Below are positions 23,922 through 64,000 of a DNA stretch of 64,000 bases, in pieces. The notes under the pieces were generated by a model. That model was given only the letters and a program-made list of their open reading frames with translations. It was not told the DNA's origin and did no database searches. The DNA is from Dehalococcoidia bacterium (lineage in GTDB: Bacteria; Chloroflexota; Dehalococcoidia; Lucifugimonadales; Australimonadaceae). The stretch covers positions 4,870 to 68,869 of the forward strand of contig DAOUKL010000055.1 in assembly GCA_034421335.1 (NCBI GenBank). Reading direction: 5' to 3'. Numbering within the stretch: position 1 is the stretch's first letter; each line of letters opens with the position of its first letter. The position numbers were made by a program, and so were the translations under genes.

Positions 23922-23946
23922 CTGCCTATCCTCAGCGGTCAGGCGT

Positions 23947-23984
23947 CCCCTCTCCCCTGGCGGGAGAGGGCTAGGGTGAGGGGG
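23947..23984. repeat. Hairpin repeat flanking the DUF559 gene (left copy, inverted relative to right copy)
   Basis: ccctctccc-ctggc-gggagaggg followed by ctagggtgaggggg. The last codons and stop of the DUF559 gene lie inside it. Confidence 0.65.
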
Positions 23985-24318
23985 AAAGTCCCAGAACAGC
24001 CATAGCTATCGCCTCCCGCACGGCGTCCGTCTCTTGCAAGACCTGATTGTTCCAGAACCTCATCACTCTGAAACCTTGAGTCTCTAACCAGGCAGTGCGC
24101 CCAGCGTCATAGTCCGCCAGTTCCGCGTGCTGTCCGCCATCCACTTCTATGACGAGTCTGCTCTCGAAGCATACGAAGTCCACGATGTAGGGGCCTATCG
24201 GCCCTTGTCTGCGAAATCTGCTACCCGCCACTTGGCGGTTGCGCAGGATGTTCCACAAGGCTCTCTCGGCGTCTGTGGAACTTTTTCTGAGTTGGCGTGC
24301 TCTGGGAATGTTGTTCAT
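23971..24318 (-). CDS. DUF559 (Vsr-like) endonuclease domain protein
   Basis: 115 aa. Pattern ...PYIVDFVC...LVIEVDGGQH...D..R...L...GFRVMRFWN... is typical of DUF559. I counted 196 G+C in 348 nt (about 56 percent), clearly below its surroundings. Confidence 0.85.
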   Translation of the reverse strand: MNNIPRARQLRKSSTDAERALWNILRNRQVAGSRFRRQGPIGPYIVDFVCFESRLVIEVDGGQHAELADYDAGRTAWLETQGFRVMRFWNNQVLQETDAVREAIAMAVLGLSPSP

Positions 24319-24327
24319 GGATTGCGT

Positions 24328-24365
24328 TCACCCCCATCCTAACCTTCCCCCATCAAGGGGGAAGG
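24328..24365. repeat. Hairpin repeat flanking the DUF559 gene (right copy)
   Basis: tcacccccatcctaa followed by ccttccccc-atcaa-gggggaagg. Same architecture as the reverse complement of 23947-23984. Confidence 0.65.
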
Positions 24366-24381
24366 AACCAGATGACCAGCC

Positions 24382-25158
24382 CTACAGCCAGGGGTAGGGC
24401 AGGTCACGGCGGGTGCTGGGCGTGGGGAGCATGGGGTCGTCCAGCAGGCGGCGCAGGCGGGCGAGCAGCGCGGACGCCTCCTGTTCGTTGAGCTTGCCGG
24501 CGAGCGCCTGCGCCAGCGGGCCATCGCCGGACGCAAGGTCGTCCGCTGCGCGGGCGGCGTCCGCCAGCAGGGGGTCCGGGACGGGGCTGCCGCCGAAGTC
24601 CCATATCACCGTTCGCAGTTTGTGGGCAGCGTTGAACGTGAGGCCGTTGTCCACGGCCCAGACGCGGTCATCGGGGCCGATGAAGCAGTGGCCGCCCTTG
24701 CGGTCGGCGTTGTTGGCGATGAGGTCGAACACGGCGAGGCGCAGGCACTCCTCCTCGCGTCCGTCGCGGAACGTGAAGAAGTTGGAGTCCGGGCCGTGGG
24801 GAACGAACAGCTGGAGCGAGCCCTCGCCGGCCTCGCCTTCGCGCTCGACGGTCGGGGGGATGAGGCCCCAGCCGAGCGCCTTGCCCAGTTCGTAGGCGGC
24901 GCATTCGCGGTGGTGGAGCGTGCCGATGGGGAAGTCCCACAGCGGGGCCTCGCCGGAGCGCGGCTTGTAGACGCCGTGGGCCCGGCGACCGTCGAGTTCG
25001 AGCTCAACGACGAACGTGTAGTTCGACGCGTCTGGATGCAGCCAGCCGTCGCCGATGGCCGCCTCCCGGACGAACTGCTCGGCGTCGGGAGCGGACGGGA
25101 GCACGTCATGGCGTCCCGACTCGATCTGCTCGCGGGGATAACGGGCGAAGAGAGGCAT
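24382..25158 (-). CDS. PI3/PI4-kinase-like protein resembling the SCO1664 family
   Basis: Start moved to ATG 25158 (TGATG overlap with the upstream stop). Motifs NNADRKGGH and VDNGLTF. Family name from memory. Confidence 0.75.
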   Translation of the reverse strand: MPLFARYPREQIESGRHDVLPSAPDAEQFVREAAIGDGWLHPDASNYTFVVELELDGRRAHGVYKPRSGEAPLWDFPIGTLHHRECAAYELGKALGWGLIPPTVEREGEAGEGSLQLFVPHGPDSNFFTFRDGREEECLRLAVFDLIANNADRKGGHCFIGPDDRVWAVDNGLTFNAAHKLRTVIWDFGGSPVPDPLLADAARAADDLASGDGPLAQALAGKLNEQEASALLARLRRLLDDPMLPTPSTRRDLPYPWL

Positions 25159-25649
25159 CAGTTGGCGCGGGGGCAGGCGTGCGCTTTGCCGTCGCGCTGC
25201 ATGGGGCCTCCGCAGAGGACGCACCGGGCGCGTCCGGCGTCGTGCACCTCGAACGCCCGATCTGCGAGCCAGTCCATAACTTCCGTGTCGGCCCACATCG
25301 CGATGGCGTCGTCCTCCTCCTCGGAGACCTGCGCGAGGATCATGTAACGGTCCGACCGCCTGTCGTGTCCGAGGGAGAGGGCGGTCACCTTGCAGTTGAA
25401 GTCGGCCTTGAAGGCGGCGCTGGCGCCGGCGACGGGCTCGCCCGTCTCGCGCACGGAGGTGCGGAGCATCCGCTTGATGGCGAGAGCGAGCTCGTAGAGC
25501 TCCTCCTTTTCGAGCCACAGCAGGGCGGAGCCGTTCTCACCGTCGGCGTAGAGCCGGAAGGTGCGCTGGCCGGGAGAGCCGACGTACTCAGGCTCGACCA
25601 AGGAGCAGTTGCCGAGGTCGTGCCGGGCGTATGCGCGGTCGTCCGCCAT
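25158..25649 (-). CDS. DUF3090-like protein
   Basis: 163 aa with C-terminal zinc-ribbon-like CVLCGGPM...HACP. Starts 2 nt after the prs stop. Family name from memory. Confidence 0.75.
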   Translation of the reverse strand: MADDRAYARHDLGNCSLVEPEYVGSPGQRTFRLYADGENGSALLWLEKEELYELALAIKRMLRTSVRETGEPVAGASAAFKADFNCKVTALSLGHDRRSDRYMILAQVSEEEDDAIAMWADTEVMDWLADRAFEVHDAGRARCVLCGGPMQRDGKAHACPRAN

Positions 25650-25651
25650 GG

Positions 25652-26605
25652 CTAGTACTTGTCGAACATCGCGCCGACGGACATGCCGCTGTGGATGCGG
25701 TGGATGGCCTCGCCGAGCAGTTCGGCGACGGAGACGGTCGCGACGAAGCCGTTGCGCTTCTCCTCGGGCAGGTGAATGGTGTCGGTGCAGACCAGGTTGT
25801 GGATGGGGCTTTCCTGGAAGCGGGACACCGCGCCGCCGGAGAGGACGGCGTGGGTTGAGGACGCGTAGACGTCCAGGACGCCGGCCTCCCTGAGAGCGTC
25901 GGCGGCGCTCGTCATCGAACCTCCGGTGTCCACCTCGTCGTCCATCAGGATGGCCGTCCTGCCGGCGACGTCGCCGATGATGTTCAGCAGTTCGGTCTTG
26001 TCCTCGTTGCCCATGCGCCGCTTCTCGATGATGGCGAGCGGCGCGCCGAGGCGTTCGGCCATATCCCGCGCCCGCTTGGAGATGCCGATGTCGACGGCGA
26101 CGACGACGGGGTTCTCAAGCCGCATTCTCTCGAAGTGGCTGACGATGATGGGGAGCGCGGTCAGTTCGTCGACGGGGATGTTGAAGAACCCCTGTATCTG
26201 TCCGGCGTGCAGGTCCACGGTGAGGACGCGGTCGGCGCCGGCGGTGGTGAGGAGGTCGGCGATCAGCCTGGCGGTGATGGGCACGCGCGGCTGGTCTTTC
26301 TTGTCGGTGCGGCCGTAACCGTAGTAGGGGATGACCGCGGTGATGCGCCCGGCCGACGCGCGCTTGGCGGCGTCGATCATGATGAGCATCTCCACCAAAT
26401 GGTCGTTCACCGGCGTGGAGAACGACTGGATAAGGAAGACATCGCGTTGGCGGACGTTCTCTCGGATGCGGACGAAGGTGTTGTCGTTGCTGAACTTGAA
26501 GACGTCCGCCCTACCCAGGGGAATGCCGAGGTAGTCGGCCACTCTCGTTGCGAGCGGCTGGTTGGAGTTGCCGGAAAAGACCTTGAGTTCCTCGTACAGG
26601 GCCAT
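25652..26605 (-). CDS. prs: Ribose-phosphate pyrophosphokinase
   Basis: 317 aa. YYGYGRTDKK, DLHAGQIQGFF, and PRPP loop ILMDDEVDTGGS. Confidence 0.95.
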   Translation of the reverse strand: MALYEELKVFSGNSNQPLATRVADYLGIPLGRADVFKFSNDNTFVRIRENVRQRDVFLIQSFSTPVNDHLVEMLIMIDAAKRASAGRITAVIPYYGYGRTDKKDQPRVPITARLIADLLTTAGADRVLTVDLHAGQIQGFFNIPVDELTALPIIVSHFERMRLENPVVVAVDIGISKRARDMAERLGAPLAIIEKRRMGNEDKTELLNIIGDVAGRTAILMDDEVDTGGSMTSAADALREAGVLDVYASSTHAVLSGGAVSRFQESPIHNLVCTDTIHLPEEKRNGFVATVSVAELLGEAIHRIHSGMSVGAMFDKY

Positions 26606-26720
26606 CTATCGCCGCTCCGGGATGGTCTGGGGCGCCACGACGCGCCCGGCGTCATTGGGCACACGAGATTCTAACGCGCGCGGGGCGGCGGGGGTAGTGT
26701 TCTCCCCCGAGGAGTTCCGC

Positions 26721-26925
26721 CCCCCTCCCCCGTCTTCGGGGGAGGGCTGGGGAGAGGGCGGCGCGCAAGCGCAAAGTCTCTAACGTACGCAGGAAGGTTC
26801 GTGGTTCGACCGGATCACCATGACCAAAGGGGGATGGATTCCCGCCTTCGCGGAAATGACGGAGGGTTACGCAAAGGTCCTGGAGGAGAAGATCTCGTCT
26901 CTCTCCGTGGGGGGCTGGGGAGAGG
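26721..26925. repeat. Composite intergenic repeat cluster (B inverted, A, P, right TIR, B variant)
   Basis: ccccctcccccgtcttcgggggagggctggggagaggg; tggttcgaccggatcaccatgaccaa; ggatggattcccgccttcgcggaaatgacgg; gttacgcaaaggtcc (exact reverse complement of 37611-37625); ctctccgtggggggctggggagagg. Confidence 0.8.
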
Positions 26926-26933
26926 CCGTGCGC

Positions 26934-28031
26934 CTACCCTCCGAACGCGAAGGCGCCGTCCGCTCCGATGAGCCCCTGCGCAGGCAGGACGACCCGGCGG
27001 GCGCCCTCCCGGACGACGCCGATGACCGACGCCTCGCCTCCCGCGCCCGCTACCGCCTCGAGCGCGGCGTCGGCGTCATGCGCGGGAACGACGGCGCAGA
27101 ACCCGACGCCCATGTTGTAGACGCGGTGCATCTCCGGAAGGGCGACGTTTCCCTCGCGCCGGATGACCTCGAACACCGGCGGCGGAGACGGCAGAGCGTC
27201 GAGCCGGTACTCGACCTCGGCGTCGAGCCGGAGCAGGTTGAGCAGGCCGTCGCCCGATATGTGCGCGAGGCCGCGGACATCAACCCCCGCGGCGAGCATC
27301 GCGAGCGCCTCGGGAACGTAGATGCGCGTGCGGCGCAGCAGCTCCCCGCCGACCGTGCGCCCGCACTCCGGCAACCCGCGCTCGACAGCGGCCGGGTCGT
27401 TCCCGATGAGCACTCTGCGGGCGAGGGTGAGGCCGTTGGCGTGAACGCCGTCGCTGGGCATTCCGAGGACCACGTCGCCCGCCTCGACGCGGCCGCCGGT
27501 GATGGGCGCGGCGCCGTCGAGCAGCCCGACGCACGTCCCCGATATGTCGAAGGCGTAGCCGGGCCGGGGGCCGGTCAGCGTGTCCGGGTGCTGCGAGAGC
27601 TCGCCGCCGACGATGGCGACGCGGGCGCGCTCGGCGGCGTCGCGCATCCCCTTGCCGAGTCCCGAGAGCATGTCCTCGTGGGGAAACTGGAGAGCGATGT
27701 AGTCGACCAGCGCGAACGGCTGCGCGCCGACGCAGACGACGTCGTTGACGTTGACCGCCACGCAGTCCCAGCCGATGGGTTCGAAGTCGCCGGTAAGCTG
27801 GGCGAGAACGCTCTTGGAGCCCACGCCGTCCGTGGAGATGGCGAGCGACAGCCTGTCGGTCAGGCGGAGCACGGAGGCGAAGAAGCCGTTGGGTACGATC
27901 TGCTCGCCGGCGCCCTCGCGAAAGTCGCGGGTCTCGCGCACCCACGCGAGCAGGCCGGAGAGGCCCGCGGCTGCGGCGTCGGCATCGACGCCGGACTCTG
28001 CGTAGGTGCGTGGCGTAGGGGCGTCGGTCAT
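26934..28031 (-). CDS. purM: Phosphoribosylformylglycinamidine cyclo-ligase (AIR synthetase)
   Basis: Start moved to ATG 28031 (MTDAPTPRTYAESGVD...); the 658-aa track ORF extends through repeats. Pattern ...ISTDGVGSK... and PurM N/C domains. Confidence 0.9.
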   Translation of the reverse strand: MTDAPTPRTYAESGVDADAAAAGLSGLLAWVRETRDFREGAGEQIVPNGFFASVLRLTDRLSLAISTDGVGSKSVLAQLTGDFEPIGWDCVAVNVNDVVCVGAQPFALVDYIALQFPHEDMLSGLGKGMRDAAERARVAIVGGELSQHPDTLTGPRPGYAFDISGTCVGLLDGAAPITGGRVEAGDVVLGMPSDGVHANGLTLARRVLIGNDPAAVERGLPECGRTVGGELLRRTRIYVPEALAMLAAGVDVRGLAHISGDGLLNLLRLDAEVEYRLDALPSPPPVFEVIRREGNVALPEMHRVYNMGVGFCAVVPAHDADAALEAVAGAGGEASVIGVVREGARRVVLPAQGLIGADGAFAFGG

Positions 28032-54360: not shown

Positions 54361-54390
54361 TTGAGAAGTCGTAGCGAGAAGGACGTTGCC

Positions 54391-54681
54391 GTGTTCAAGC
54401 GCTTTGTGCATCCCGGCGAAATCCTGCGAGAAGAGTTGGCGGAGTTTGGGATGAGCCCCACGGCTTTCGCACGGCAGATTGACGTGCCCGCCAACAGAGT
54501 CGGCCAAATCATCGCCGGCAAGCGCTCAGTGACCGGCGACACCGCTCTCCGGTTTGGGCACTGGTTTGGCGTCGACCCTCAGTTCTGGATGAATCTCCAG
54601 GCCCAGTTCGACCTCGCCACAGCCGAGCGCCTCAGCGGAGACGTCGTGCGGACGCTTCCCACAGCGCCCAGGGGCGACTAG
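54391..54681 (+). CDS. higA: HigA-family antitoxin (XRE-type HTH)
   Basis: Start chosen at GTG 54391 (VFKRFVHPGEILREE...). HPGEIL...LA..L.V....V..I..GKR..T.DTALR....FG....FW.NLQ pattern. Confidence 0.85.
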   Translation: MFKRFVHPGEILREELAEFGMSPTAFARQIDVPANRVGQIIAGKRSVTGDTALRFGHWFGVDPQFWMNLQAQFDLATAERLSGDVVRTLPTAPRGD

Positions 54682-55226
54682 GGCGCAACCGCCTCCGGCA
54701 GGGGCTCACCGTTGAGCGTGAACGTCGACGTGATGGCCATGCCCTGCGCGAGGGACTGCATCGCGTAGCAGCTCGCCTCCGCGAGGTCCACCAGGCGGCG
54801 GATGCGCTCCGGCGGCTCGTCCGACTCCAGGCTCACTTGCGTTTCGAGGGCGACCGGGCCGCCCGTGATGGTGCCCGCGAGCGCTGAGCCGTCGCGGTAG
54901 AAACGCGTAACCTGCTCGATGCGGGCCTTTGCGTAGGCGATGTGAGTCATCTCGCTCAACCGAGCGAGTTGGGTGAGCAGTCAGAACGCGACGCCGGCGG
55001 AGAAGTACGCCAGCGGCGAGGGTGCCTCGTCGTCGCCCCCAAGGTGCTTCCCCTCGTCGCAGAGGACCTCGAACGTGCTGCCCTGTCCGGCGCGGACGCG
55101 CGCGAGCTTCTGCTGGCGTTCGAGCGTTTCGGCCTCGAGGGTGATGACGATTTCGCGGCGGGCGCCGTCGCCGCTCGTCCGGGGAGGGCTCTCGACGGTT
55201 TCGACTTTCCTGACGATGTCGGTCAT
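54678..55226 (-). CDS. OsmC/Ohr-family protein with in-frame TGA at the peroxidatic Cys position (selenocysteine candidate, alternatively a nonsense pseudogene)
   Basis: Track ORFs 54981-55226 and 54678-54959 are in the same frame, separated only by TGA 54981-54983. ...SPLAYFSAGVAF[TGA]LLTQL aligns with NPEELIGAAHAAC-FSMAL of OsmC. The resolving Cys context AEASCYAMQSL is present. ATG 55226 is preceded by AAGGACGGAG. Confidence 0.6.
54951..54968 (-). promoter_or_regulatory. SECIS-like hairpin 12 nt downstream of the in-frame UGA
   Basis: Minus strand: UGA-cugcucacccaa-CUCGCUC-GGUU-GAGCGAG, a 7-bp perfect stem with a G/U-containing tetraloop. Confidence 0.4.
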
Positions 55227-55276
55227 AAGCTCCGTCCTTTGGCGACGCCGGGCGGTCCTGGCGAACGAACGGGAAG

Positions 55277-55352
55277 TGGAGGCGACGGGCGGAATCGAAC
55301 CGCCGAATAGAGGTTTTGCAGACCTCCGCCTTAACCACTTGGCTACGTCGCC
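55277..55352 (-). tRNA. tRNA-Cys (GCA)
   Basis: ggcgacg ta gcc aagtggttaa ggc g gaggt ctGCAaa acctc tattc ggcgg ttcgatt ccgcc cgtcgcc t cca. Cloverleaf fits, with discriminator U and encoded CCA. Confidence 0.9.
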
Positions 55353-55435
55353 GCCGAACCCTCAGATTAACGACAACGCGCCCCTCCGTCAACGACGGCG
55401 GGGTGCGGCGGAGCGACGCGGCATAGACTACCGCC

Positions 55436-56842
55436 ATGACGATTCCCGCCAAGCTCGCCCGAGCGTGCGGCGCGCAGCCCTTGGGGCGGCTGCTCGACCG
55501 CGCCGCGGAGGCCGGAGCGCGCCCCGTGAGCGGAGCATCGGCGGCGGCGTTTCGCATCGCGTTCGGGACGCTCGGCGTCATCGCCGTCATTCGCTTCGCC
55601 GCGCGCGGTTGGATCGACGAGTTCTATATCGCGCCGGAGCACCACTTCACCTACTCCGGCTTCTGGTGGGCGCAGCCATGGCCCGGCTGGGGAATGTACG
55701 CCCACTTCGCGCTCCTCGGGTTCGCAGCCCTCGGCGTGGCGCTCGGCTACCGCTACCGGCTCTCCATCGCAGCCTTCTTCCTGCTGTTCACCTACGTGGA
55801 ACTGCTGGACAAGACGACCTACCTGAACCACTACTACCTGGTGAGCCTGCTCAGCTTCCTGATGATCTTCATGCCGCTGCACCGCACGGCGTCGCTCGAC
55901 GCGCGGCGGAGGCCGGCGCCCGCAGACGGGAGCGTTCCCGTATGGGTCGTGTGGACGCTCAGGGCGCAACTGGGCGTGGTGTACCTGTTCTCCGGCCTCG
56001 CCAAGCTGAACCCGGACTGGCTGTTCCACGCGCAGCCCCTGCGGATATGGCTGTACAACAGCGGCGATGCGGTGCTCGTAGGGGCGCTCCTCAAGGAACC
56101 CTGGGCCGCGTACGCCATGAGTTGGGCGGGCGCGGCGTTCGACCTCACGATAGTCGGCTGGCTGCTGTGGAAGCGCAGCAGACCGTGGGCCTACGCCGTG
56201 CTGGCGGTCTTCCACGTAGCAACGTGGCTGCTCTTCCCCATCGGCATGTTTCCCTGGATCATGATGAGCGCGGCGCTCATCTTCTTCCCGCCGGACTGGC
56301 CTCTGCGCCTGCGCGCCGTCCTGCTCCGGCGACCGGCGGCGCCGGCGGCCTTGCCCGCGCAGCGAGAGCAAGCCGTCTCGTGGAGCGCTCGTCTCGCCGT
56401 GGCCGCTCTCCTGCTCTTTGCGCTCGTGCAGGTCCTCGTTCCGCTGCGGCACTGGGCGTACCCCGGCAACGTGCGCTGGAACGAGGACGGATACCGGTTC
56501 TCCTGGCGCGTGCTCCTCACGGAGAAGCACGGACAGGCCGCCTTCCGCGTTCGCGACCCGTCGAACGGACAGGAGCGGCTCGTCTACCCGGAGGACTACC
56601 TGACGCCGTTGCAGGCCGAACGGATGGCGACCCACCCGGACATGATCCTGGCCACGGCGCACATCATCGCGCGGGACTTCGCCGACCGGGGCGTCCCGAA
56701 CGTCGAGGTCCGCGCCGACGTGGCCGTCGCGTTCAACGGACGGCAGTCCGCGCGCTTCATCAACCCGACGGTGGACCTGGCGCACGTGGCGCCGGGCATC
56801 TGGCCGAAATGGTGGGTGCTGCCCGGCCCGCCCGGGCGCTAG
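55436..56842 (+). CDS. HTTM-domain protein (vitamin K-dependent gamma-carboxylase homologue)
   Basis: 468 aa. FRIAFGTLGVIAVIRF...FFLLFTYVELLDKTTYLNHYYLVSLLSFLM closely follows the VKGC/HTTM signature (LLDKT..NH.YL). Also EDGYRFSWRVLLTEK further on. Confidence 0.85.
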   Translation: MTIPAKLARACGAQPLGRLLDRAAEAGARPVSGASAAAFRIAFGTLGVIAVIRFAARGWIDEFYIAPEHHFTYSGFWWAQPWPGWGMYAHFALLGFAALGVALGYRYRLSIAAFFLLFTYVELLDKTTYLNHYYLVSLLSFLMIFMPLHRTASLDARRRPAPADGSVPVWVVWTLRAQLGVVYLFSGLAKLNPDWLFHAQPLRIWLYNSGDAVLVGALLKEPWAAYAMSWAGAAFDLTIVGWLLWKRSRPWAYAVLAVFHVATWLLFPIGMFPWIMMSAALIFFPPDWPLRLRAVLLRRPAAPAALPAQREQAVSWSARLAVAALLLFALVQVLVPLRHWAYPGNVRWNEDGYRFSWRVLLTEKHGQAAFRVRDPSNGQERLVYPEDYLTPLQAERMATHPDMILATAHIIARDFADRGVPNVEVRADVAVAFNGRQSARFINPTVDLAHVAPGIWPKWWVLPGPPGR

Positions 56843-57912
56843 CGGAGGCTGTCGCCGTCCGCGTCGCTGAAGCCGACCGAGACGCCGAGCAGGCTGACAA
56901 CCTCGGTGGCGAGCGTGTCCTGCAACGCCATCAGCGCCTCGTAGACCGCGACCGCCTCCGGCGAACTCTCCGCCGCGGCCTCCCGCAACGGGCCGTCCAC
57001 CGCGTCGATTGCGGCGAGCGACGCCTCGAACCCGGCGCGCACCCGCGCGTCCGCGTCCTCGGACAATGGAACGACGAGCGCCGATACGCCCAGTCCCTCT
57101 CCCGCGCCCTCGTAGACATCGCGCATCCCCAGCACCTGGTTGCGCAGGTCCGCGAGCGCGTTCCGGCCCGCGCCGCCGGGTATGGCGGTCGGGTCGGCGT
57201 CGCCCCGCAGCCCGAGCGCTCCCGCCAGCCGCATGTCCACGATCGTGCGGATCAGGAAGACCTGCGTGCGGACGACCTCCGCCACGGCCTGGGTCGAGAC
57301 CAGCGATATCGAGGACTGCCCGGTGAAGTACTCCCTGTAGGGCGACCCTCCTCCGGCTGTCCAATCGTCGAGGAGCGCGGCGGCCTCGCCGGCGATCACC
57401 TCGCCTGCGCTCGTGAGATACGCGCAGCGCGCCGGGTCTGCGGCAAGCAGTTGCGGCGCGTCGTCCGCGAACAGCACGTACTCGATGCCGCCAAGGCCCC
57501 GCTGTGTGGATGAGATGTTGTTCCGCACGAAGTCCGGCGTGATGCCGGAGCCGGACGCCAGCAGCGCGTCTATCCGCTCAGGTTCGGTTACCGCCCACGC
57601 GATGACGCCCGTCGAGCGCCTGTCGAGCACCGGGCCGAGCCCCGACGCCTCCGAGCGCGCCCACGCCTCGCGCGCGCCGCGCCATGCCTCGCGCGCATCG
57701 TCCAGCGCGGCGTCCGACGGAGCGGAGCAGAGCGCGGCCAGCGCGCCGTTCAACGACGCCGTCTCAGCCGCCAATGCCTCGTAGCTCGGGACGACGACCT
57801 CATCCGTGATGCCCGTTAGCACTTCGCCCTCGTCCGGCCCGCTCGGACCGCAAGCCGCACTCGCGGCCACGAGGGCCCCGAACAGCAGGCAAACGCGCAG
57901 CCCGGGGTTCAT
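56839..57912 (-). CDS. Imelysin-like protein (no HxxE motif), lipoprotein
   Basis: Start moved to ATG 57912 (overlaps the upstream TGA). Signal/lipobox LLFGALVAASAACG. ...RGLGGIEYVLF... sits at the position of the imelysin GxHxxE motif. Confidence 0.75.
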   Translation of the reverse strand: MNPGLRVCLLFGALVAASAACGPSGPDEGEVLTGITDEVVVPSYEALAAETASLNGALAALCSAPSDAALDDAREAWRGAREAWARSEASGLGPVLDRRSTGVIAWAVTEPERIDALLASGSGITPDFVRNNISSTQRGLGGIEYVLFADDAPQLLAADPARCAYLTSAGEVIAGEAAALLDDWTAGGGSPYREYFTGQSSISLVSTQAVAEVVRTQVFLIRTIVDMRLAGALGLRGDADPTAIPGGAGRNALADLRNQVLGMRDVYEGAGEGLGVSALVVPLSEDADARVRAGFEASLAAIDAVDGPLREAAAESSPEAVAVYEALMALQDTLATEVVSLLGVSVGFSDADGDSLR

Positions 57913-59342
57913 CACAGCGACTCCAGGAAACGCAGCAGCGCGGCCCGTTCTTCGGCGGAGAGGAGCGTGAAAGCGTCGCGGGAGGCCTGCGCCTCGCCGC
58001 CGTGCCAGAGGATGGCCTCCTCGAGGCCGCGCGCCCGCCCGTCGTGCAGGAACATGGTGTGGCCGCTCACGGTCTTCACGAGCCCGATGCCCCAGAGCGG
58101 GGGCGTGCGCCATTCGCTGCCCGTGGCGAGCCCGTCCGGGCGCCCGTCGGCCAGACCCTCGCCCATGTCGTGCAGGAGCAGGTCGGTGTAGGGGTAGATG
58201 GTCTGCCCGCGCAGCGGACGCACGGGATGCCATTCATCCGTTACGTGCTGTGGAGTGTGGCAGGCGATGCAGTTGGCCTGCGCGAAGAGTTGCGCGCCCT
58301 CCCGCACCTGCGAGTCGTCCACGTCGCGCATGGCGGGTACGGCGAGCGTCTGCACGTAGAAGGTCACCAAGTCCAGGCGCTCGTCGTCGATCTCCGGCGT
58401 CCCTCCGTTGGGGGCGTCCCGGCAGGCGGACTGCGCAGCCGGACAGTTCTGTTCGGGGAAGAGCGTGGAGGTGACGCCGATGTCGCCGAGGAAGGCTCCC
58501 GCGGACTGCTGCTCCACCGTGGGCTGGCCGGCCTTCCACCCGAACCGGCCCAGGGCCGCAGCGCCGCTCCGAACGTCGGCGACCATGTTCGGGCGTCCCG
58601 ATATACCGTCGCCGTCGGCGTCGTCCGGGTCCGCAAGCGCCAGGATGTCCTCCGCGGGTATCGCCTCCAGCAGCCCCATGCCGATGGTCGCGGGCCCCAC
58701 GCGCGGCGACATCATCACGTCCAGATGCAGCGGACCGTAGGCCAGGTCTGCTATCGAGTACGCCGGCTTGCGGAGCGAGTACGGCGTTCCGTCCGGGTAG
58801 GCGCCGGGCATCTCCTCGTAGCGGATGCTGATGCGGCCTTCGGGGAGCACGCCGATGATGGCGCGGTCCTGCAATTGCCCGCCGTAGACGGGGTCGTCCT
58901 CCGGGCCGTTGGGGCCGGGCGCGCTGAGCAGCAGCAGCAGACCGCGCTCCGGGTCGTCGTCGTTATCGGGCGGCTTCGCGCGGCCGTCGTGGCTGTGACA
59001 GGAGGAGCAGGCGAGGGCGTTGAACGTGGGGCCCAGCCCGTCGCGCGCCGCCGTAGAGGCGGGCGCGGTAACCCAGTTCTGGTTGAAGAAGCTGTCTCCC
59101 ACCTCGAACCTGCGGCGTTCCTGGTTCGTGAGATTCCGCGCGGACAACTCGAACGCGTTGGTCCCGCTGCTGAACGCGGTCGTCTCTCCGCCGAGCCGCT
59201 CGTCGAACAGCAGTGACTCGTCTATCCGGTCGTCTTGCGAGCAGGCGGCGGCCGAGGCGGGCAGCAGCGCCGCTGCGACGAGCAGCGCCGCCGCGAGCCG
59301 CCGCGATGCGCGCTTGACCAGTGCTGTGTAACCGTCCTTCAC
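57912..59342 (-). CDS. DUF1111-type di-heme cytochrome c (peroxidase-like / thiol oxidoreductase-like) protein
   Basis: 476 aa with GTG start. Signal/lipobox LLPASAAAC and two heme-binding motifs, CSSCH and CIACH. Confidence 0.85.
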   Translation of the reverse strand: MKDGYTALVKRASRRLAAALLVAAALLPASAAACSQDDRIDESLLFDERLGGETTAFSSGTNAFELSARNLTNQERRRFEVGDSFFNQNWVTAPASTAARDGLGPTFNALACSSCHSHDGRAKPPDNDDDPERGLLLLLSAPGPNGPEDDPVYGGQLQDRAIIGVLPEGRISIRYEEMPGAYPDGTPYSLRKPAYSIADLAYGPLHLDVMMSPRVGPATIGMGLLEAIPAEDILALADPDDADGDGISGRPNMVADVRSGAAALGRFGWKAGQPTVEQQSAGAFLGDIGVTSTLFPEQNCPAAQSACRDAPNGGTPEIDDERLDLVTFYVQTLAVPAMRDVDDSQVREGAQLFAQANCIACHTPQHVTDEWHPVRPLRGQTIYPYTDLLLHDMGEGLADGRPDGLATGSEWRTPPLWGIGLVKTVSGHTMFLHDGRARGLEEAILWHGGEAQASRDAFTLLSAEERAALLRFLESL

Positions 59343-59351
59343 CGCGTCAGC

Positions 59352-60450
59352 TCAACTGACGCTGATAGTGATGCCGATGGCTTCCGCCGCCGCCACGATC
59401 GTATCGGTCTGGTCTTCCAGCGCGACGATGGCGTCCAGCACCGCCCGCCGTCCGGCGTCCGCGTCGGACACGCCCTCGCGCAGGTGCCGGTCGAACGGCG
59501 CAGGGATCGCCCTCGCAAGGGCGACGCTGCGCCGTATCTCGTCCTCCAGCTGCTGGGCGAGCTCCTCGTCCTCGGCGGCGATCAGGTCGCGCACGCCGGG
59601 GCCGGAGACCACGCCGTAGTCGCCGGTGTAGACCAGCCAGACGCCGAGGGCGTTGCCGATGATGTCGGCGGTCGTGTTGTCGGCGAAGCAGGAGTGTTCG
59701 TCTTCCTGGGAGCGCGCCTCGTAGGCGACCGTCATGCGCTCGCCCGCGAGTTCGCCCCTGCTCATCTCGCCGATGCCGGTGATGATGCGCGTGAGCGCCT
59801 CGTCCGAGTCGACCGACAGGAACTCCGCGCGGTAGTTCCCGCTGTCGCCGGGCGCCCAGGCGTCCACCATGTCGCGCAGGTGACGCACGAGCACGTCCGA
59901 CGCCGTGGCGCAGGCCGGGACCGTCGTCGTTCATGTCCTGGCCCCAGAGCAGGAACTCGATGGCGTGCCATCCCGTGGACACGTTCGCCTCGCCGCCTTC
60001 CTCGTTGAGCGAGACGATGAGGGTTGCGTCGATGACGGGGAAGTCGCCGGGGTTGTTGATGATGCCGGCGCCGGGGTCGCCCTCGACGTAGTCGATGTAC
60101 GCCTCGTCGAGCGGCCACGCGTTGACCAGTCCCTCGGGGCCGTCTTCCTCGTTGTCAATCGGGCCGTTGTAGAACCGGTAGATCTCGGTGGGGCCGTAGT
60201 CGTCGCGGGCGAGCAGCCACGCGCGCTTGGCGGCGTCGAGCCGCACCGCCGAGGGAGCGGCGAGGAAGCGGTCGATGGCCGCGTCCATCGTCACGGCGCT
60301 GGCGAGGCTCTTCGAGTACATCGCGTGCGCGCCGTCGGCGTAGTTCCGAACCACCTGCTCCTTGAGGTCGTCGTCCGCGCCTCCGCCGCTGCAAGCCGCC
60401 AGCAGGAGTCCTGCGGCGGCCAGAACACCCAGCCTCCATGCTCTGCGCAT
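59352..60450 (-). pseudogene. Imelysin (peptidase M75-like) gene interrupted by a frameshift
   Basis: The N-terminal part from ATG 60450 reads ...STGWHAIEFLLWGQDMNDDGPG, then degenerates into an Arg-rich frame. Homologous sequence resumes in another frame (59894-59352: ...DVLVRHLRDMVDAW...). The switch is at about 59895-59915. Confidence 0.6.
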
Positions 60451-60488
60451 AGGTCAACTCACCCGGGATTGAATCAGGCGAGCGGCAT

Positions 60489-60543
60489 TCTATACCATTT
60501 TTATTAGTGTGCAATAACTCCTTTAGTTAGTATGCCCTAACTA
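60489..60543 (-). promoter_or_regulatory. AT-rich promoter/operator region upstream of the imelysin cluster
   Basis: Minus strand has TGGTATAGA (extended -10-like; hexamer at 60489-60494). It also has TTATT-N7-AATAA (60501-60517) and TAGTTAG-N6-CTAACTA (60524-60543). This is the most AT-rich stretch I saw in the window. Confidence 0.4.
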
Positions 60544-60639
60544 TGCGGCTCAACAGGAGCACGAAACCCCACCATGGCGAGGAGCACACGCCTCTCAGGA
60601 TTGGAGGATGGGCAGGGCGGGCAGGCGCGGAGACGCCCT

Positions 60640-61692
60640 CTACAAACCCAGCTCCGCGCTCACGCCGTACTCGGCGGCGAGGCCCGCCAGTTTCTCCCAC
60701 GTCGCGTCCTCGACGAAGATCCCTTCGACGACGCGCTTCTGGGCGTTCCGGTGCTCGATCTCGCCGGGGTAGAGGATCTCGTCGAACCCGGCGGCGCGGT
60801 CCGACGCCTTCAGGTACGCGGCGAGGTCCGTCACCTGCTGCTTGAACTCGTCGAGCGGACGGAACGCGGCGACGTTGAACACCGCCATGAAGCAGCCGTC
60901 GTTGTGGAACCCACGAGGGTCGTGGCCGAACCCCAGCCCCGTCAGGATGCCCGACAGGATCTCGACGATGACGGAGAGGCCGTAGCCCTTGTAGCCCTCG
61001 GAGCCGCCGAGCGGGAGGAGCGCCCCGCCCTGCCCGCGCAGCACCGCCGGGTCGGTCGCGGGGTTGCCGTCGCGGTCCACGACCCAGCCCTCGGGTATCG
61101 GGACGCCGCGCGCCTGAGCCAGTTCGACCTTGCCCGCTGCGACCGCGCTCGTGGCCATGTCGATGAACAGGGTCCCCTCGAGGTTGCTCGGAACGGCGAC
61201 GCAGATGGGGTTGGTGCCGAGGCGCGGTTCGCGCCCGCCGAACGGCGCGACCGCCTTGGACGTGCGCCCGGAGTCGGCGGTCATCAGCCCGATGCAGTCC
61301 TCGCGGACCGCCATGATGGGGTAGTCGGCGACGCGCCCGACGTGGCTCTGGCGGTACACGGTTGTGGCGGCGGCGCCCTGCGCGCGCGCCTTCTCGATCG
61401 TCAGCCGCATCGCGTGCTCGGAGACGACGTACCCGAACCCCCAGTGGCCGTCGACCACGGTCGTCGAGGCGGTCTCCTGCACGACGTCGATGGGGGCGCC
61501 GGGGACGATGTGGCCGCGCTTGACGCGCTCGATGTACGTCGGGACCTGGATGATGCCGTGGGAGTCGTGCCCGGCGAGATTGGCGCCGATGACGTGGCGG
61601 GAGATGACCTCGGACTCCTGCGGCGAGGCGCCGGCGCACTGTAGCAGCCGGTCGGCGATGGTCTGGAGTCGATCGTGGGGAACGGTTGGCAT
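60640..61692 (-). CDS. Ldh2-family dehydrogenase (second paralogue)
   Basis: 350 aa. ...LAGHDSHGI... and ...GSEGYKGYGLS... patterns, same family as 28849-29925. Confidence 0.85.
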   Translation of the reverse strand: MPTVPHDRLQTIADRLLQCAGASPQESEVISRHVIGANLAGHDSHGIIQVPTYIERVKRGHIVPGAPIDVVQETASTTVVDGHWGFGYVVSEHAMRLTIEKARAQGAAATTVYRQSHVGRVADYPIMAVREDCIGLMTADSGRTSKAVAPFGGREPRLGTNPICVAVPSNLEGTLFIDMATSAVAAGKVELAQARGVPIPEGWVVDRDGNPATDPAVLRGQGGALLPLGGSEGYKGYGLSVIVEILSGILTGLGFGHDPRGFHNDGCFMAVFNVAAFRPLDEFKQQVTDLAAYLKASDRAAGFDEILYPGEIEHRNAQKRVVEGIFVEDATWEKLAGLAAEYGVSAELGL

Positions 61693-61798
61693 GAGCGGCC
61701 TCCGGTGGAGAAATGCAAGCTGCGCCGGATTCTATCCCGACTTCCGCCGGGACGGGGCCGACAACGGGGAAGCGGCCGAAGGGCGCGGAGGGCAAAGC

Positions 61799-61845: not shown

Positions 61846-61932
61846 TGGTGCGCAGGAAGAGATTTGAACTCTTACGGGATTGCTCCCACTGCCCCCTCAA
61901 GACAGCGTGTCTACCTATTCCACCACCTGCGC
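61846..61932 (-). tRNA. tRNA-Leu (GAG)
   Basis: gcgcagg tg gtgg aataggtag acac g ctgtc ttGAGgg ggcag tgggagcaatcccgt aagag ttcaaat ctctt cctgcgc a cca. Long variable arm and encoded CCA. Confidence 0.9.
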
Positions 61933-62028: not shown

Positions 62029-62105
62029 TGGCAGGAGTGGAAGGATTCGAACCCTCGACCGGCGGTTTTGGAGACCGCTGCTCTACCAGGCTGAGCTACA
62101 CTCCT
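62029..62105 (-). tRNA. tRNA-Trp (CCA)
   Basis: aggagtg ta gctc agcctggta gagc a gcggt ctCCAaa accgc cggtc gaggg ttcgaat ccttc cactcct g cca. Confidence 0.9.
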
Positions 62106-62116
62106 GCGTCTCCTAC

Positions 62117-62146
62117 AGGCTAGCACCGCTCCCGAAGAAGGGTCAA
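62117..62146 (-). promoter_or_regulatory. Candidate sigma-70-type promoter of the tRNA-Trp/tRNA-Leu operon
   Basis: Minus strand TTGACC-N18-TAGCCT, with the -10 hexamer ending 11 nt before the tRNA-Trp 5' end. Confidence 0.4.
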
Positions 62147-62256
62147 TTTCGAGGGAGCGCTTTCAAGTGCGACAATTGGGCGTTGCGTTTCCGACAGCAC
62201 GGCGCGTATGCTGGTCTTTGTCAGCGCCGGAAGACCGGCGCAACCCGCCGGGGACG

Positions 62257-62292
62257 AGCCCCGGCCCTTGAGACGAGGGCCGGGGCTTTTGT
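62257..62292 (+). terminator. Strong intrinsic-terminator-like hairpin with no obvious upstream plus-strand gene
   Basis: agccccggccct-tgagacg-agggccggggct (12-bp stem) followed by ttttgt. Lies 36 nt upstream of the prohead protease ATG. Confidence 0.55.
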
Positions 62293-62327
62293 CGTCCGCC
62301 GGCAAATCGAGCGAAAGGGGGAAGCGA

Positions 62328-63020
62328 ATGACGGGAACAACTATGGACGCCGCGGCGGCAAGTGAGCGGGAGCGGTGGGAGCGGGAGCGGCTGTTCGAGG
62401 CGCTCGAAGCGTACCGGCGGGGGTTGTCGGACGCGCCGGTGGTGCAGAAGTTCGCCGTGAGCCAGGCGTCGTCGCCGAACGAGGACCGTCCATTGACGGT
62501 CGTGGCGTCGGACGAAACGGAGGACCGCCTGGGCGACGTGGTGCGGGCGAACGGCTGGGAACTGCGGGCGTACAAGCGGAACCCGGTGTTTCTGTGGGCC
62601 CACGACTACACCCGCACGCCGATCGGGCGGAGTTCGTGGGTGGGGATCGACGCGGGCCGCCTGCTGGCGACGCTGGAGTTCGCGCCCACGGAGTTCGCGC
62701 GGGAGGTGGAGACGCTCTACCGGCAGCGGTTCCTGCGGGCGGTGAGCGTGGGGTTCCGGGCGCGGGAGTTCGCGTTCCGAAAGGGCCGCGACGGCGGCGT
62801 CGAGGGCGTGGAGTACACCAGCCAGGAGCTGCTGGAACTGAGCGCGGTGCCGGTGCCGGCGAACCCGAGCGCGCTGGCGCGGGCGTTCGACGCCGGAGGA
62901 GTCTCGGCGTCGCGGCTGCGGCCCCTCTTCGCGCTCGACCAACCGGCGGAGTCGATCGACCCGGACGGCGCGCGGCGGCTCATCGCGGAACTGCGCCGCC
63001 TGCGCCAACTGGTGGCGTAA
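62328..63020 (+). CDS. HK97-family phage prohead protease
   Basis: Start moved to ATG 62328, preceded by AAAGGGGGAAG. ...NPVFLWAHDYTRTPIG..., ...VSVGF..., ...ELSAVPVPANP... follow the HK97 prohead protease pattern. Confidence 0.85.
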   Translation: MTGTTMDAAAASERERWERERLFEALEAYRRGLSDAPVVQKFAVSQASSPNEDRPLTVVASDETEDRLGDVVRANGWELRAYKRNPVFLWAHDYTRTPIGRSSWVGIDAGRLLATLEFAPTEFAREVETLYRQRFLRAVSVGFRAREFAFRKGRDGGVEGVEYTSQELLELSAVPVPANPSALARAFDAGGVSASRLRPLFALDQPAESIDPDGARRLIAELRRLRQLVA

Positions 63021-63054
63021 GAGCGGCGAGGGGTTGTGCGCGCTTGCGCGCGCG

Positions 63055-63137
63055 GCCCTCTCTGCCCTTCGGGCATCTCCCCCTGTGGGGGAGAAATCAG
63101 AACCCCCTCCCCCCGTGGGGGAGGGTTGGGGAGAGGG
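63055..63137. repeat. Host-type hairpin repeats (C + inverted B) between the phage protease and capsid genes
   Basis: gccctctctgcccttcgggcatctccccctgtgggggagaaatc and ccccctccccccgtgggggagggttggggagaggg. Same modules as at 31713-31792. Confidence 0.85.
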
Positions 63138-63199
63138 CGGCCCCTCCCCGCAAAGAGAACGGTTAGGAAGCAGCGACAGCGCATTGCTAAGGAGGAAGG

Positions 63200-64000
63200 A
63201 ATGTCAGTCATCGAGGAAGTGCAGCGGGAGATCGTGCAGACGCAGGAGTTCGTGAGGGACCGCATCGACCCCATCACGCGGGAGCTGTCGCTCGTGCGGC
63301 AGGAGCAGGAGCGGCTGGCGGAGGAGGTTCGCAGGGCGCTCGAACAGGAGCGCGCGTCGCGCCGGGAAGCGCTCCTGAGCCGCCCGACGAACGACCGCGT
63401 GCGGGTGCGCGGCGGCAAGCTCGACGGGTTCGACCTGGTGGACATGGCCATCGTCCGCAGCCTGCTCTCCGCCCAACTGGCCCGCCCGCAGGACTACAAC
63501 CCGCGCTCGCTCCGGGCGTGGGAGGAGAGCGTGTCCAAGGCGATGGACTCGACGACCGCCGGGGCGGGCGACGAACTCGTGCCGCAGGAGGCGGCGCGCC
63601 AGCTCTGGGCGGACGTCAACGCCGAAACGGCGGTCGCGTCGCTGTTCGACACCGTGGCGATGCCCTCCAACCCGTTCGACATCCCGCTGGAACTCGGCGA
63701 CGTGAACTGGTACCCCGGCGCGGCGAACACGGCGACCACCGCGACCGACCTGAAGACGGCCAAGCAGACGCTGACCGCGCACGAACTCGTCGGCATGGTC
63801 CCGTGGGCCTACGAACTCGACGAGGACGCCGTGGTGGCGATGATGGCCGAGGTGCGCTCGACCCTGCTGCGCAACGCGGCGCAGGTGCTCGACGACGTCA
63901 TCCTCAACGCCGACGCGTCGACGACGGGGAACATCAACTACGACGGGGGCAACCTGGCGAAGACGACGGCGGGGTACGCGCACTACCTCATCGGATTCGA
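63200..64000 (+). CDS. HK97-family phage major capsid protein (partial, continues beyond window)
   Basis: Not in the ORF track because no stop lies in the window. ATG 63200 is preceded by AAGGAGGAAGG. My translation gives MSVIEEVQREIVQTQEF... (coiled-coil delta-domain-like), then ...GDELVPQEAARQLWADV...MPSNPFDIP...WYPG...AHELVGMVPWAYELDEDAV..., typical of HK97-type capsids. Confidence 0.8.

What the first reader, a model, noticed from the sequence alone, without database searches (positions are those of the whole stretch)
54678..55226. OsmC/Ohr-family gene with UGA exactly at the peroxidatic cysteine position plus a downstream SECIS-like hairpin: selenoprotein candidate
The two track ORFs (81 aa and 93 aa) are in one frame, separated only by TGA 54981-54983. 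Reading through gives a 182-aa OsmC-like protein. ...APSPLAYFSAGVAF-U-LLTQLARL aligns residue for residue with E. coli OsmC GTNPEELIGAAHAAC-FSMALSL (Pro to Cys spacing of 11 in both). The second, resolving Cys is present 71 residues later in the family context (AEASCYAMQSL versus KAGCPVSQVL). Twelve nt after the UGA the mRNA can form CUCGCUC-GGUU-GAGCGAG (nt 54968-54951), a 7-bp stem with a G/U-containing apical loop. As I recall, the E. coli fdhF SECIS upper stem-loop sits 11 nt from UGA and exposes G and U in its loop. I also recall OsmC-like proteins being listed among selenoprotein families from marine metagenome surveys. A Cys-codon TGC/TGT to TGA nonsense mutation is the alternative explanation.
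Basis: partly seen in the sequence, partly recalled or inferred. Interest (0 to 1): 0.7.

Follow-up and report, generated by a model that had tools for sequence, protein, structure and literature searches.

The report
OsmC-like selenoprotein gene with SECIS hairpin

Summary
A minus-strand gene (55226..54678) has one in-frame TGA (54983..54981). Reading through gives a 182-aa OsmC-fold protein.

It scores 165 bits (cut-off 95) against NCBIfam NF041052, "OsmC-related (seleno)protein". It carries the UxxT motif published for the OsmC-like selenoprotein family (Sargasso Sea, 2005).

All 14 related genome loci found (28-87% identity; Dehalococcoidia, other Chloroflexota, Binatia, Dormibacterota and others) have TGA at the same codon. 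All 11 full-length database homologues have Cys there.

A 6-9 bp hairpin starts 11-14 nt after the UGA in all 15 Sec genes. It always exposes G-U in a 3-4 nt loop. Three different stem sequences occur, with compensatory changes. Five of six Cys homologues lack it.

Codons after the TGA show more synonymous than non-synonymous differences, so they are translated. TGA is an ordinary stop elsewhere in the window.

The 64-kb window holds no selA, selB, selD or tRNA-Sec, so the machinery in this genome could not be checked.

Verdict: a real selenoprotein gene with a bacterial SECIS, belonging to a known family. Peroxidase activity is inferred, not shown.

The parts
54678..55226 (-). Coding sequence of the 182-aa OsmC-related selenoprotein (ATG at 55226, TAG at 54680..54678), read through the UGA at codon 82
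   Evidence: sequence and translation; Pfam OsmC, 1e-11; NF041052, 165 bits against a cut-off of 95; predicted OsmC/Ohr fold. The start is conserved as M-x-E/D-IVRKVET in L001-L004.
54981..54983 (-). UGA codon 82, read as selenocysteine (first residue of the UxxT motif U-L-L-T)
   Evidence: TGA at the same codon in 15 of 15 Sec-type loci. Cys at this column in 11 of 11 full-length homologues. Aligned to the first Cys of solved Ohr and OsmC structures. The UxxT motif is published for this family.
54948..54971 (-). SECIS-like hairpin. Core 7-bp stem CUCGCUC/GAGCGAG with GGUU loop at 54968..54951; two further pairs extend it to 54971..54948. The loop G-G-U falls at nt 23-25, counting the U of UGA as 1.
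   Evidence: fold; present in 15 of 15 Sec loci, absent in 5 of 6 Cys loci; G36 invariant and U37 at least 90% conserved in the loop; 4 of 6 core pairs with compensatory changes between two other clades; a covariance model built without this clade finds 54946..54986 at 30.6 bits, E 2.6e-7.
54768..54770 (-). TGC codon 153, the second (resolving-type) cysteine in the motif AEASCYA
   Evidence: Invariant in alignment A2 and in all Sec loci. Aligned to the second Cys of Ohr 3eer and of 3cje.
55235..55240 (-). Shine-Dalgarno-like AAAGGA, 8 nt upstream of the ATG
   Evidence: Read directly. Inference only.

Best explanation
The gene encodes a selenocysteine-containing member of the OsmC-related (seleno)protein family.

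During translation, the UGA at codon 82 is not read as a stop. The hairpin that begins 12 nt downstream presents G-G-U in its apical loop at about the position used in the E. coli fdhF element. It acts as a bacterial SECIS: it recruits SelB carrying GTP and Sec-tRNA(Sec), and selenocysteine is inserted. This step is inferred from conservation.

The 182-aa product has the OsmC/Ohr fold. In the model, Sec82 lies at the kink between two helices, and Cys153 lies at the kink of the second helix pair. By analogy with Ohr and OsmC, the selenolate most likely attacks a hydroperoxide or another oxidised substrate. That would give a selenenic acid, which Cys153 resolves to a selenenylsulfide, which a cellular dithiol then reduces. 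This chemistry is inferred, not shown.

The gene stands alone. No partner gene is conserved across clades.
For: Shown here:
- NF041052 hit over the full model, 165.3 bits against a cut-off of 95. Pfam OsmC hit.
- TGA at the homologous codon in 14 of 14 related genome loci spanning 28-87% identity and several phyla.
- Cys at that column in 11 of 11 full-length homologues.
- Hairpin with a G-U loop 11-14 nt after the UGA in 15 of 15 Sec loci, using three unrelated stem sequences. Between two of the clades, 4 of 6 core pairs carry double compensatory changes, and all 6 core pairs are standard pairs in every sequence; the whole 7-pair helix is 90.5% paired.
- Five of six Cys homologues lack the hairpin.
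- A covariance model trained on the other clades recovers the window element at E 2.6e-7, while the Cys loci score 14 bits or less.
- After the TGA, synonymous differences outnumber non-synonymous ones, for example 31 against 18 over 99 codons.
- TGA ends many ordinary genes in the window. This is the only internal TGA with coding signal on both sides that is not a gene junction.
- The predicted structure has mean pLDDT 82. The 44 best-ranked PDB fold matches are all OsmC/Ohr-family structures.

From the literature:
- The OsmC-like selenoprotein family with a UxxT motif and predicted SECIS is published (PMC1088965; PMC9312934; PMC13188914).
- Dehalococcoidia MAGs rank among the bacteria richest in selenoproteins (PMC13326102).
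- In fdhF the mini-hairpin lies 11 nt from the UGA and has G23/U24 in its loop (PMC8659212).
Against: - No selA, selB, selD or tRNA-Sec lies in the 64-kb window, so the machinery in this genome is unverified.
- No Rfam family matches the hairpin.
- The hairpin lacks the bulged U of the E. coli fdhF element.
- For the other two clades, synonymous-recoding controls are only weakly significant one sequence at a time.
- The Glu of the Ohr NPE motif aligns with Leu72, so the Ohr-type catalytic triad may be incomplete and the substrate is uncertain.
- There is no expression or protein evidence.
Confidence: 0.9

Rival explanations
1. The gene is a pseudogene. A TGC or TGT Cys codon mutated to TGA, truncating the protein at residue 81.
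For: A single-base change would produce it. Gene callers split the gene into an 81-aa and a 93-aa ORF. No Sec machinery is seen in the window.
Against: - TGA occurs at the same codon in 15 of 15 orthologues, down to 28% identity and across phyla.
- The frame stays intact, and synonymous differences exceed non-synonymous ones downstream of the TGA.
- Cys153 and the C-terminal LNG motif are conserved.
- A structured element co-occurs with TGA but is absent from 5 of 6 TGC/TGT genes.
Confidence: 0.02
2. The UGA is read through, but not as selenocysteine. Examples would be Cys or Trp insertion by near-cognate or SECIS-dependent misincorporation, or use of the element in a lineage that has lost selenium metabolism.
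For: The Sec machinery could not be checked for this genome. Nothing here identifies the inserted residue chemically.
Against: - The UGA/Cys alternation at an active-site column together with a G-U-loop hairpin at SECIS distance is the standard signature of Sec genes. The curated family is defined that way.
- The Dehalococcoidia class includes selenoprotein-rich genomes.
- TGA acts as a stop elsewhere in the window.
Confidence: 0.06
3. These are two independent small genes, and the hairpin is a translational or transcriptional signal between them.
For: A TTG at 54959 could start the 93-aa ORF.
Against: - Neither half is a complete OsmC domain. The Pfam and NCBIfam matches run straight across the TGA (residues 64-166 and 28-173).
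- The TTG lies inside the hairpin and has no ribosome-binding site.
- Full-length single-chain homologues exist.
- No terminator-like site is found.
Confidence: 0.01

Closest known systems
OsmC-like selenoprotein family (Zhang, Fomenko & Gladyshev 2005, Sargasso Sea selenoproteome, PMC1088965; NCBIfam NF041052 'OsmC-related (seleno)protein')
   Same: Full-length match to the curated model, well above its cut-off. Sec in a UxxT motif aligned with Cys in homologues. A predicted bacterial SECIS lies directly downstream of the UGA.
   Different: Nothing essential. The published examples were marine. This one and its closest relatives come from uncultured Dehalococcoidia, with further Sec-type relatives in other Chloroflexota, Binatia and Dormibacterota MAGs.
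E. coli fdhF SECIS, the archetypal bacterial SelB-binding element
   Same: It lies inside the ORF immediately 3' of the UGA. The mini-hairpin starts 12 nt after the UGA, against 11 nt in fdhF. G and U are exposed in a small apical loop at nt 23-25, against G23/U24 in fdhF.
   Different: The stem is a perfect 7 bp with no bulged U17. The lower stem is short. The loop is GGUU here and only 3 nt (GUA or GUU) in the other clades. SelB binding was not tested.
Ohr and OsmC two-cysteine hydroperoxide reductases (Pfam PF02566; PDB 1n2f, 1qwi, 3eer, 1vla)
   Same: Same fold and a Pfam match. The two redox residues sit at the positions of the peroxidatic and resolving cysteines.
   Different: The first Cys is Sec. 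Sequence similarity to true Ohr and OsmC is marginal (E 0.36-0.55). The Glu of the Ohr NPE motif aligns with Leu72. There is an N-terminal extension of about 45 residues. No activity has been assigned.
Jann_2040 OsmC-like protein of Jannaschia sp. CCS1 (PDB 3cje)
   Same: The closest solved structure by sequence (E 1.4e-12) and by fold (TM 0.64/0.77). It shares the APxPLA...G..C(L/V)(L/M)TQ motif and the second Cys.
   Different: It has Cys rather than Sec. It is a structural-genomics entry with no biochemical function determined.

Membership tests
OsmC-related (seleno)protein (NCBIfam NF041052; 'OsmC-like protein' selenoprotein family, 2005) | Scores above the curated cut-off of the family model over its full length | tested here: met
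   165.3 bits against a cut-off of 95, E 7.9e-49, model positions 2-144 of 144
OsmC-related (seleno)protein (NCBIfam NF041052; 'OsmC-like protein' selenoprotein family, 2005) | In-frame UGA aligned with a conserved Cys of Cys-containing homologues | tested here: met
   TGA in 15 of 15 Sec-type loci; Cys in 11 of 11 full-length homologues at the same column
OsmC-related (seleno)protein (NCBIfam NF041052; 'OsmC-like protein' selenoprotein family, 2005) | UxxT redox motif | tested here: met
   U82-L-L-T85; the motif is listed for the family in PMC1088965, PMC9312934 and PMC13188914
Bacterial SECIS element | Stem-loop within the ORF immediately downstream of the UGA, at about the fdhF distance (mini-hairpin 11 nt from the UGA) | tested here: met
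   The stem starts 12 nt after the UGA in the window and 11-14 nt after it in all 15 loci; reference spacing from PMC8659212
Bacterial SECIS element | Small apical loop exposing a conserved G (G-U in fdhF) | tested here: met
   Loops are GGUU, GGCU, GUA or GUU. Column G36 is invariant and U37 is at least 90% conserved.
Bacterial SECIS element | Structure conserved among orthologues through compensatory changes and absent from Cys-codon homologues | tested here: met
   Three different stem sequences. Four of 6 core pairs carry double changes, and none of 500 shuffles reaches the observed covariation score. Five of 6 Cys loci have no comparable hairpin. Caveat: the compensatory changes come from few independent clade splits.
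Bacterial SECIS element | Bulged U in the upper stem (U17 of E. coli fdhF) | tested here: not met
   The stem is perfect. This feature is described for the E. coli fdhF element. By my own recollection, not checked here, the general bacterial SECIS consensus does not require it.
Bacterial SECIS element | Binds SelB and directs Sec insertion; selA, selB, selC and selD are present in the same genome | not testable with these tools
   None of these genes lies in the 64-kb window. The rest of the genome is not available. There is class-level support only (PMC13326102).
OsmC/Ohr hydroperoxide reductases (Pfam PF02566) | Pfam domain match and OsmC/Ohr fold | tested here: met
   PF02566 at 45.6 bits against a cut-off of 27.5. 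Model pLDDT 82; the 44 best-ranked Foldseek matches in PDB are all OsmC/Ohr-family entries.
OsmC/Ohr hydroperoxide reductases (Pfam PF02566) | Two conserved redox cysteines (peroxidatic and resolving) | tested here: met
   U82 and C153 align with the two Cys of Ohr 3eer and of 3cje. Both columns are conserved.
OsmC/Ohr hydroperoxide reductases (Pfam PF02566) | Catalytic Arg and Glu that activate the peroxidatic Cys | tested here: inconclusive
   The Glu of the Ohr NPE motif aligns with Leu72 in a weak local alignment (E 0.36). The Arg region lies outside the alignment. D57-E58 are invariant in this family instead.
OsmC/Ohr hydroperoxide reductases (Pfam PF02566) | Thiol-dependent hydroperoxide reductase activity | not testable with these tools
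   Requires biochemistry

The most novel reading that the evidence does not exclude
The Sec-type branch of this family may be an obligate selenoenzyme with a chemistry different from Ohr/OsmC peroxide reduction. Sec was found in every one of the 14 closest genome relatives, across Dehalococcoidia, other Chloroflexota, Binatia and Dormibacterota. The Ohr NPE glutamate appears to be replaced, and an invariant DE...GG motif and an N-terminal extension of about 45 residues are present. That would make it an uncharacterised selenium-dependent activity common in soil and subsurface lineages.
Probability: 0.15. Interest if true: 0.45.

Novelty: already known. Interest (0 to 1): 0.2.

Why it matters
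Its value is mainly for annotation. Standard gene callers split this gene into two fragments (81 and 93 aa), so the selenoprotein is easy to miss. It marks the source organism, a Dehalococcoidia relative, as a likely selenocysteine user. The set of 15 orthologous SECIS hairpins with three different stem sequences is a clean small example of RNA structure held in place inside a coding region. It opens no new question, because the family, its UxxT motif and its SECIS were reported in 2005 and are captured by a curated NCBI model.

Tried and rejected
- **Rfam.** The whole window at gathering threshold gave only three tRNAs. A permissive scan of 54850-55050 gave only chance-level hits and no SECIS family.
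- **Other selenoprotein genes in the window.** Five same-frame ORF pairs joined by a single stop all turned out to be adjacent, unrelated genes: SulP transporter and a separate downstream ORF with no family match; esterase, LLM oxidoreductase and isochorismatase; transporter and LLM oxidoreductase; imelysin and di-haem oxidoreductase; TctC and TctA. A scan for TGA codons with coding-type composition on both sides returned only the OsmC site plus two gene junctions.
- **Sec machinery in the window.** About 50 ORFs were scanned against NCBIfam or Pfam and none is selA, selB or selD. One AIRS-domain ORF (about 26937-28000, -) looked like a possible SelD, but it is PurM (289 bits against TIGR00878).
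- **Source of the window.** An exact look-up of the neighbouring HTTM protein found nothing on record.
- **Conserved partner gene (possible reductase).** An all-against-all comparison of flanking ORFs found neighbours shared only within each clade and none across clades.
- **Promoter and terminator scan** around the gene found nothing.
- **tRNA-Cys(GCA) just upstream.** I considered a functional link, but it is present only in the Dehalococcoidia clade and at variable distance, so it is most simply local synteny.

Full report
**Observation**

On the minus strand an ATG at 55226 opens a frame that runs to a TAG at 54680..54678. The frame is interrupted only by a TGA at 54983..54981. ORF calling splits it into an 81-aa piece and a 93-aa piece. 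Reading through gives 182 residues, with the UGA at codon 82 in the context ...APSPLAYFSAGVAF-U-LLTQLARL..., and a Cys at codon 153 (AEASCYA).

Twelve nt after the UGA, CUCGCUC-GGUU-GAGCGAG (54968..54951) forms a perfect 7-bp hairpin. RNAfold predicts it and extends it by two pairs to 54971..54948.

**What the protein is**

The read-through product matches Pfam OsmC (PF02566, 1e-11). It also matches, over the whole model, NCBIfam NF041052 "OsmC-related (seleno)protein" at 165.3 bits against a curated cut-off of 95.

The closest solved structure by sequence is the OsmC-like protein 3cje (E 1.4e-12). In the HMMER alignments, the first Cys of 3cje, of Ohr 3eer and of T. maritima OsmC 1vla falls opposite U82. 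The second Cys of 3cje and 3eer falls opposite C153.

An AlphaFold model built on a 12-sequence alignment has mean pLDDT 82. Residue 82 lies at a break between helices 71-80 and 84-94, and residue 153 lies between helices 139-152 and 154-159. The 44 best-ranked Foldseek matches in PDB are all OsmC/Ohr-family structures.

**Is the UGA decoded?**

A scan of one genome per species returned 14 related loci. Four are from Dehalococcoidia MAGs (79-87% identity). Four are from other Chloroflexota, a 'Deltaproteobacteria' MAG and a Binatia MAG (40-48%). Six are from Dormibacterota or similarly labelled MAGs (28-36%). Every one has TGA at the homologous codon, and an open, conserved frame follows it.

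In contrast, all 11 full-length homologues in the protein database have Cys at that column.

Among the five Dehalococcoidia genes, the 99-100 codons after the TGA carry more synonymous than non-synonymous differences, for example 31 against 18. This is the same pattern as upstream of the TGA, so that part is translated and under purifying selection.

TGA ends many ordinary genes in the window, so the codon is not reassigned genome-wide. This pattern rules out a nonsense-mutation pseudogene.

**The hairpin**

All 15 TGA-containing genes have a 6-9 bp stem that starts 11-14 nt after the UGA and carries a 3-4 nt loop. Three unrelated stem sequences occur:

| Clade | Stem | Loop |
|---|---|---|
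| Window clade (Dehalococcoidia) | CUCGCUC / GAGCGAG | GGUU (GGCU in L004) |
| Second clade (L005-L008) | UGCCCG / CGGGCA | GUA or GUU |
| Third clade (L009-L014) | (U)GGCGAA / UUCGCC(A/G) | GUU |

- The loop G is invariant and the following U is at least 90% conserved.
- Counting the U of UGA as 1, the loop G-G-U of the window element falls at nt 23-25. In E. coli fdhF the mini-hairpin lies 11 nt from the UGA, with G23 and U24 in the loop (PMC8659212).
- Between the second and third clades, 4 of the 6 core pairs show changes on both sides. All 6 core pairs are standard pairs in every sequence. None of 500 shuffles reaches the observed covariation score, and every slid register falls to 36-52% paired. 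These changes represent few independent events, so the count is supportive rather than a formal probability.
- L002 has a C-to-U change that keeps a G-U pair.
- A covariance model built only from the second and third clades finds the window element (54946..54986, 30.6 bits, E 2.6e-7) and its four close relatives. Cys-type genes score 14 bits or less. Part of that score comes from the conserved coding sequence next to the UGA.
- Of six Cys-codon homologues whose DNA I fetched, five have no comparable hairpin. One (L019) has a 6-bp stem with a 7-nt loop.
- Synonymous recoding of the window peptide gives a stem of at least 7 bp in 2.8% of samples and an equal or lower MFE in 0.6%. The other clades are individually weaker. 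The amino acids under the hairpin differ between clades (LARLSE, IARYGH, LAKFSP), which fits a constraint acting on the RNA.

**Sec machinery**

The window has tRNA-Cys, tRNA-Leu and tRNA-Trp but no tRNA-Sec. About 50 ORFs scanned against NCBIfam or Pfam include no selA, selB or selD. An AIRS-domain ORF that might have been SelD is PurM. No other convincing in-frame TGA exists in the window.

With 64 kb out of a genome of probably 2-4 Mb, this is uninformative, and the genome-wide test could not be run. At class level, Dehalococcoidia MAGs are listed with 46-49 selenoprotein genes each (PMC13326102).

**Mechanism**

- Shown: a conserved UGA/Cys alternation at an active-site column, a conserved SECIS-type hairpin, and an OsmC fold with two redox residues.
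- Inferred: SelB carrying Sec-tRNA(Sec) binds the hairpin and inserts Sec at codon 82. The selenolate then reacts with a hydroperoxide or similar oxidant. Cys153 resolves the selenenic acid to a selenenylsulfide, and a cellular dithiol reduces that bond.
- Caveat: similarity to true Ohr and OsmC is marginal (E 0.36-0.55). The Glu of the Ohr NPE motif aligns with Leu72. The invariant residues of this family (D57, E58, G64, P69, P71, Y74, L83, C153, N172, G173) do not obviously reproduce the Ohr catalytic triad. The substrate is therefore uncertain.
- No neighbouring gene is conserved across clades, and no promoter or terminator consensus was found.

**Comparison with what is known**

The "OsmC-like protein" selenoprotein family (COG1765, UxxT motif, predicted SECIS) was reported from the Sargasso Sea metagenome in 2005 (PMC1088965). 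It is listed in later reviews (PMC9312934; PMC13188914). NCBI curates a model for it, and this gene passes that model easily.

**Verdict**

This is a real selenoprotein gene with a bacterial SECIS (confidence about 0.9). The family is already known, so interest is low (0.2). Its practical value is that it corrects a split-gene annotation and flags the organism as a probable selenocysteine user.

Noticed in passing
window 55277-55352 (-); L001 2832-2907; L004 2880-2955; L002 1375-1450; L003 1377-1452: A tRNA-Cys(GCA) gene lies on the same strand 50 nt upstream of the selenoprotein start. The adjacency holds in the Dehalococcoidia clade (45-93 nt in L001 and L004, about 1.5 kb in L002 and L003) but not in the other clades. 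It is probably local synteny, though co-transcription is possible.
   Followed up: partly
window 62124-63998 (+), next to tRNA-Trp 62029-62105 and tRNA-Leu 61846-61932 (-): Two ORFs match a prohead protease/scaffold fusion and an HK97-type major capsid protein. This suggests a prophage or phage remnant that begins right beside a tRNA pair and runs off the end of the window.
   Followed up: no
window 55427-61731, compared with L001 and L004: In L001 and L004 the tRNA-Trp/tRNA-Leu pair lies about 2 kb from tRNA-Cys. In the window the distance is about 6.5 kb. The extra stretch holds an HTTM / vitamin-K-carboxylase-like membrane protein (55436-56842), an imelysin-like protein (59352-59930), a di-haem oxidoreductase (57912-59351) and a malate/lactate-type dehydrogenase (60640-61731).
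   Followed up: partly
window 54361-54681 (+): A HigA-family antitoxin gene has no evident HigB partner; only 57 nt separate it from the upstream LLM oxidoreductase gene. Its stop overlaps the selenoprotein gene's stop by 4 nt, in convergent orientation. No ORF of this kind occupies that position in L001-L004.
   Followed up: partly
L019 783-811 (Cys-type homologue P0006): This is the only Cys-codon homologue with a 6-bp hairpin (loop CGAGUAC) at the SECIS position after its TGC codon. It could be chance, or a relic of an earlier Sec state.
   Followed up: no
L010 (DATKSV010000091.1): The contig is labelled Candidatus Nanopelagicaceae but has 68% G+C, and its selenoprotein gene and neighbours are shared with L012 and L014. 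From memory, members of that family have much lower G+C, so the contig may be mis-binned.
   Followed up: no
window 23921-25652 and 26605-26930: These stretches have no ORF with clear coding composition and no family match. Competing ORFs 24376-25347 (+) and 24382-25536 (-) gave no Pfam hit. They were not examined further.
   Followed up: no
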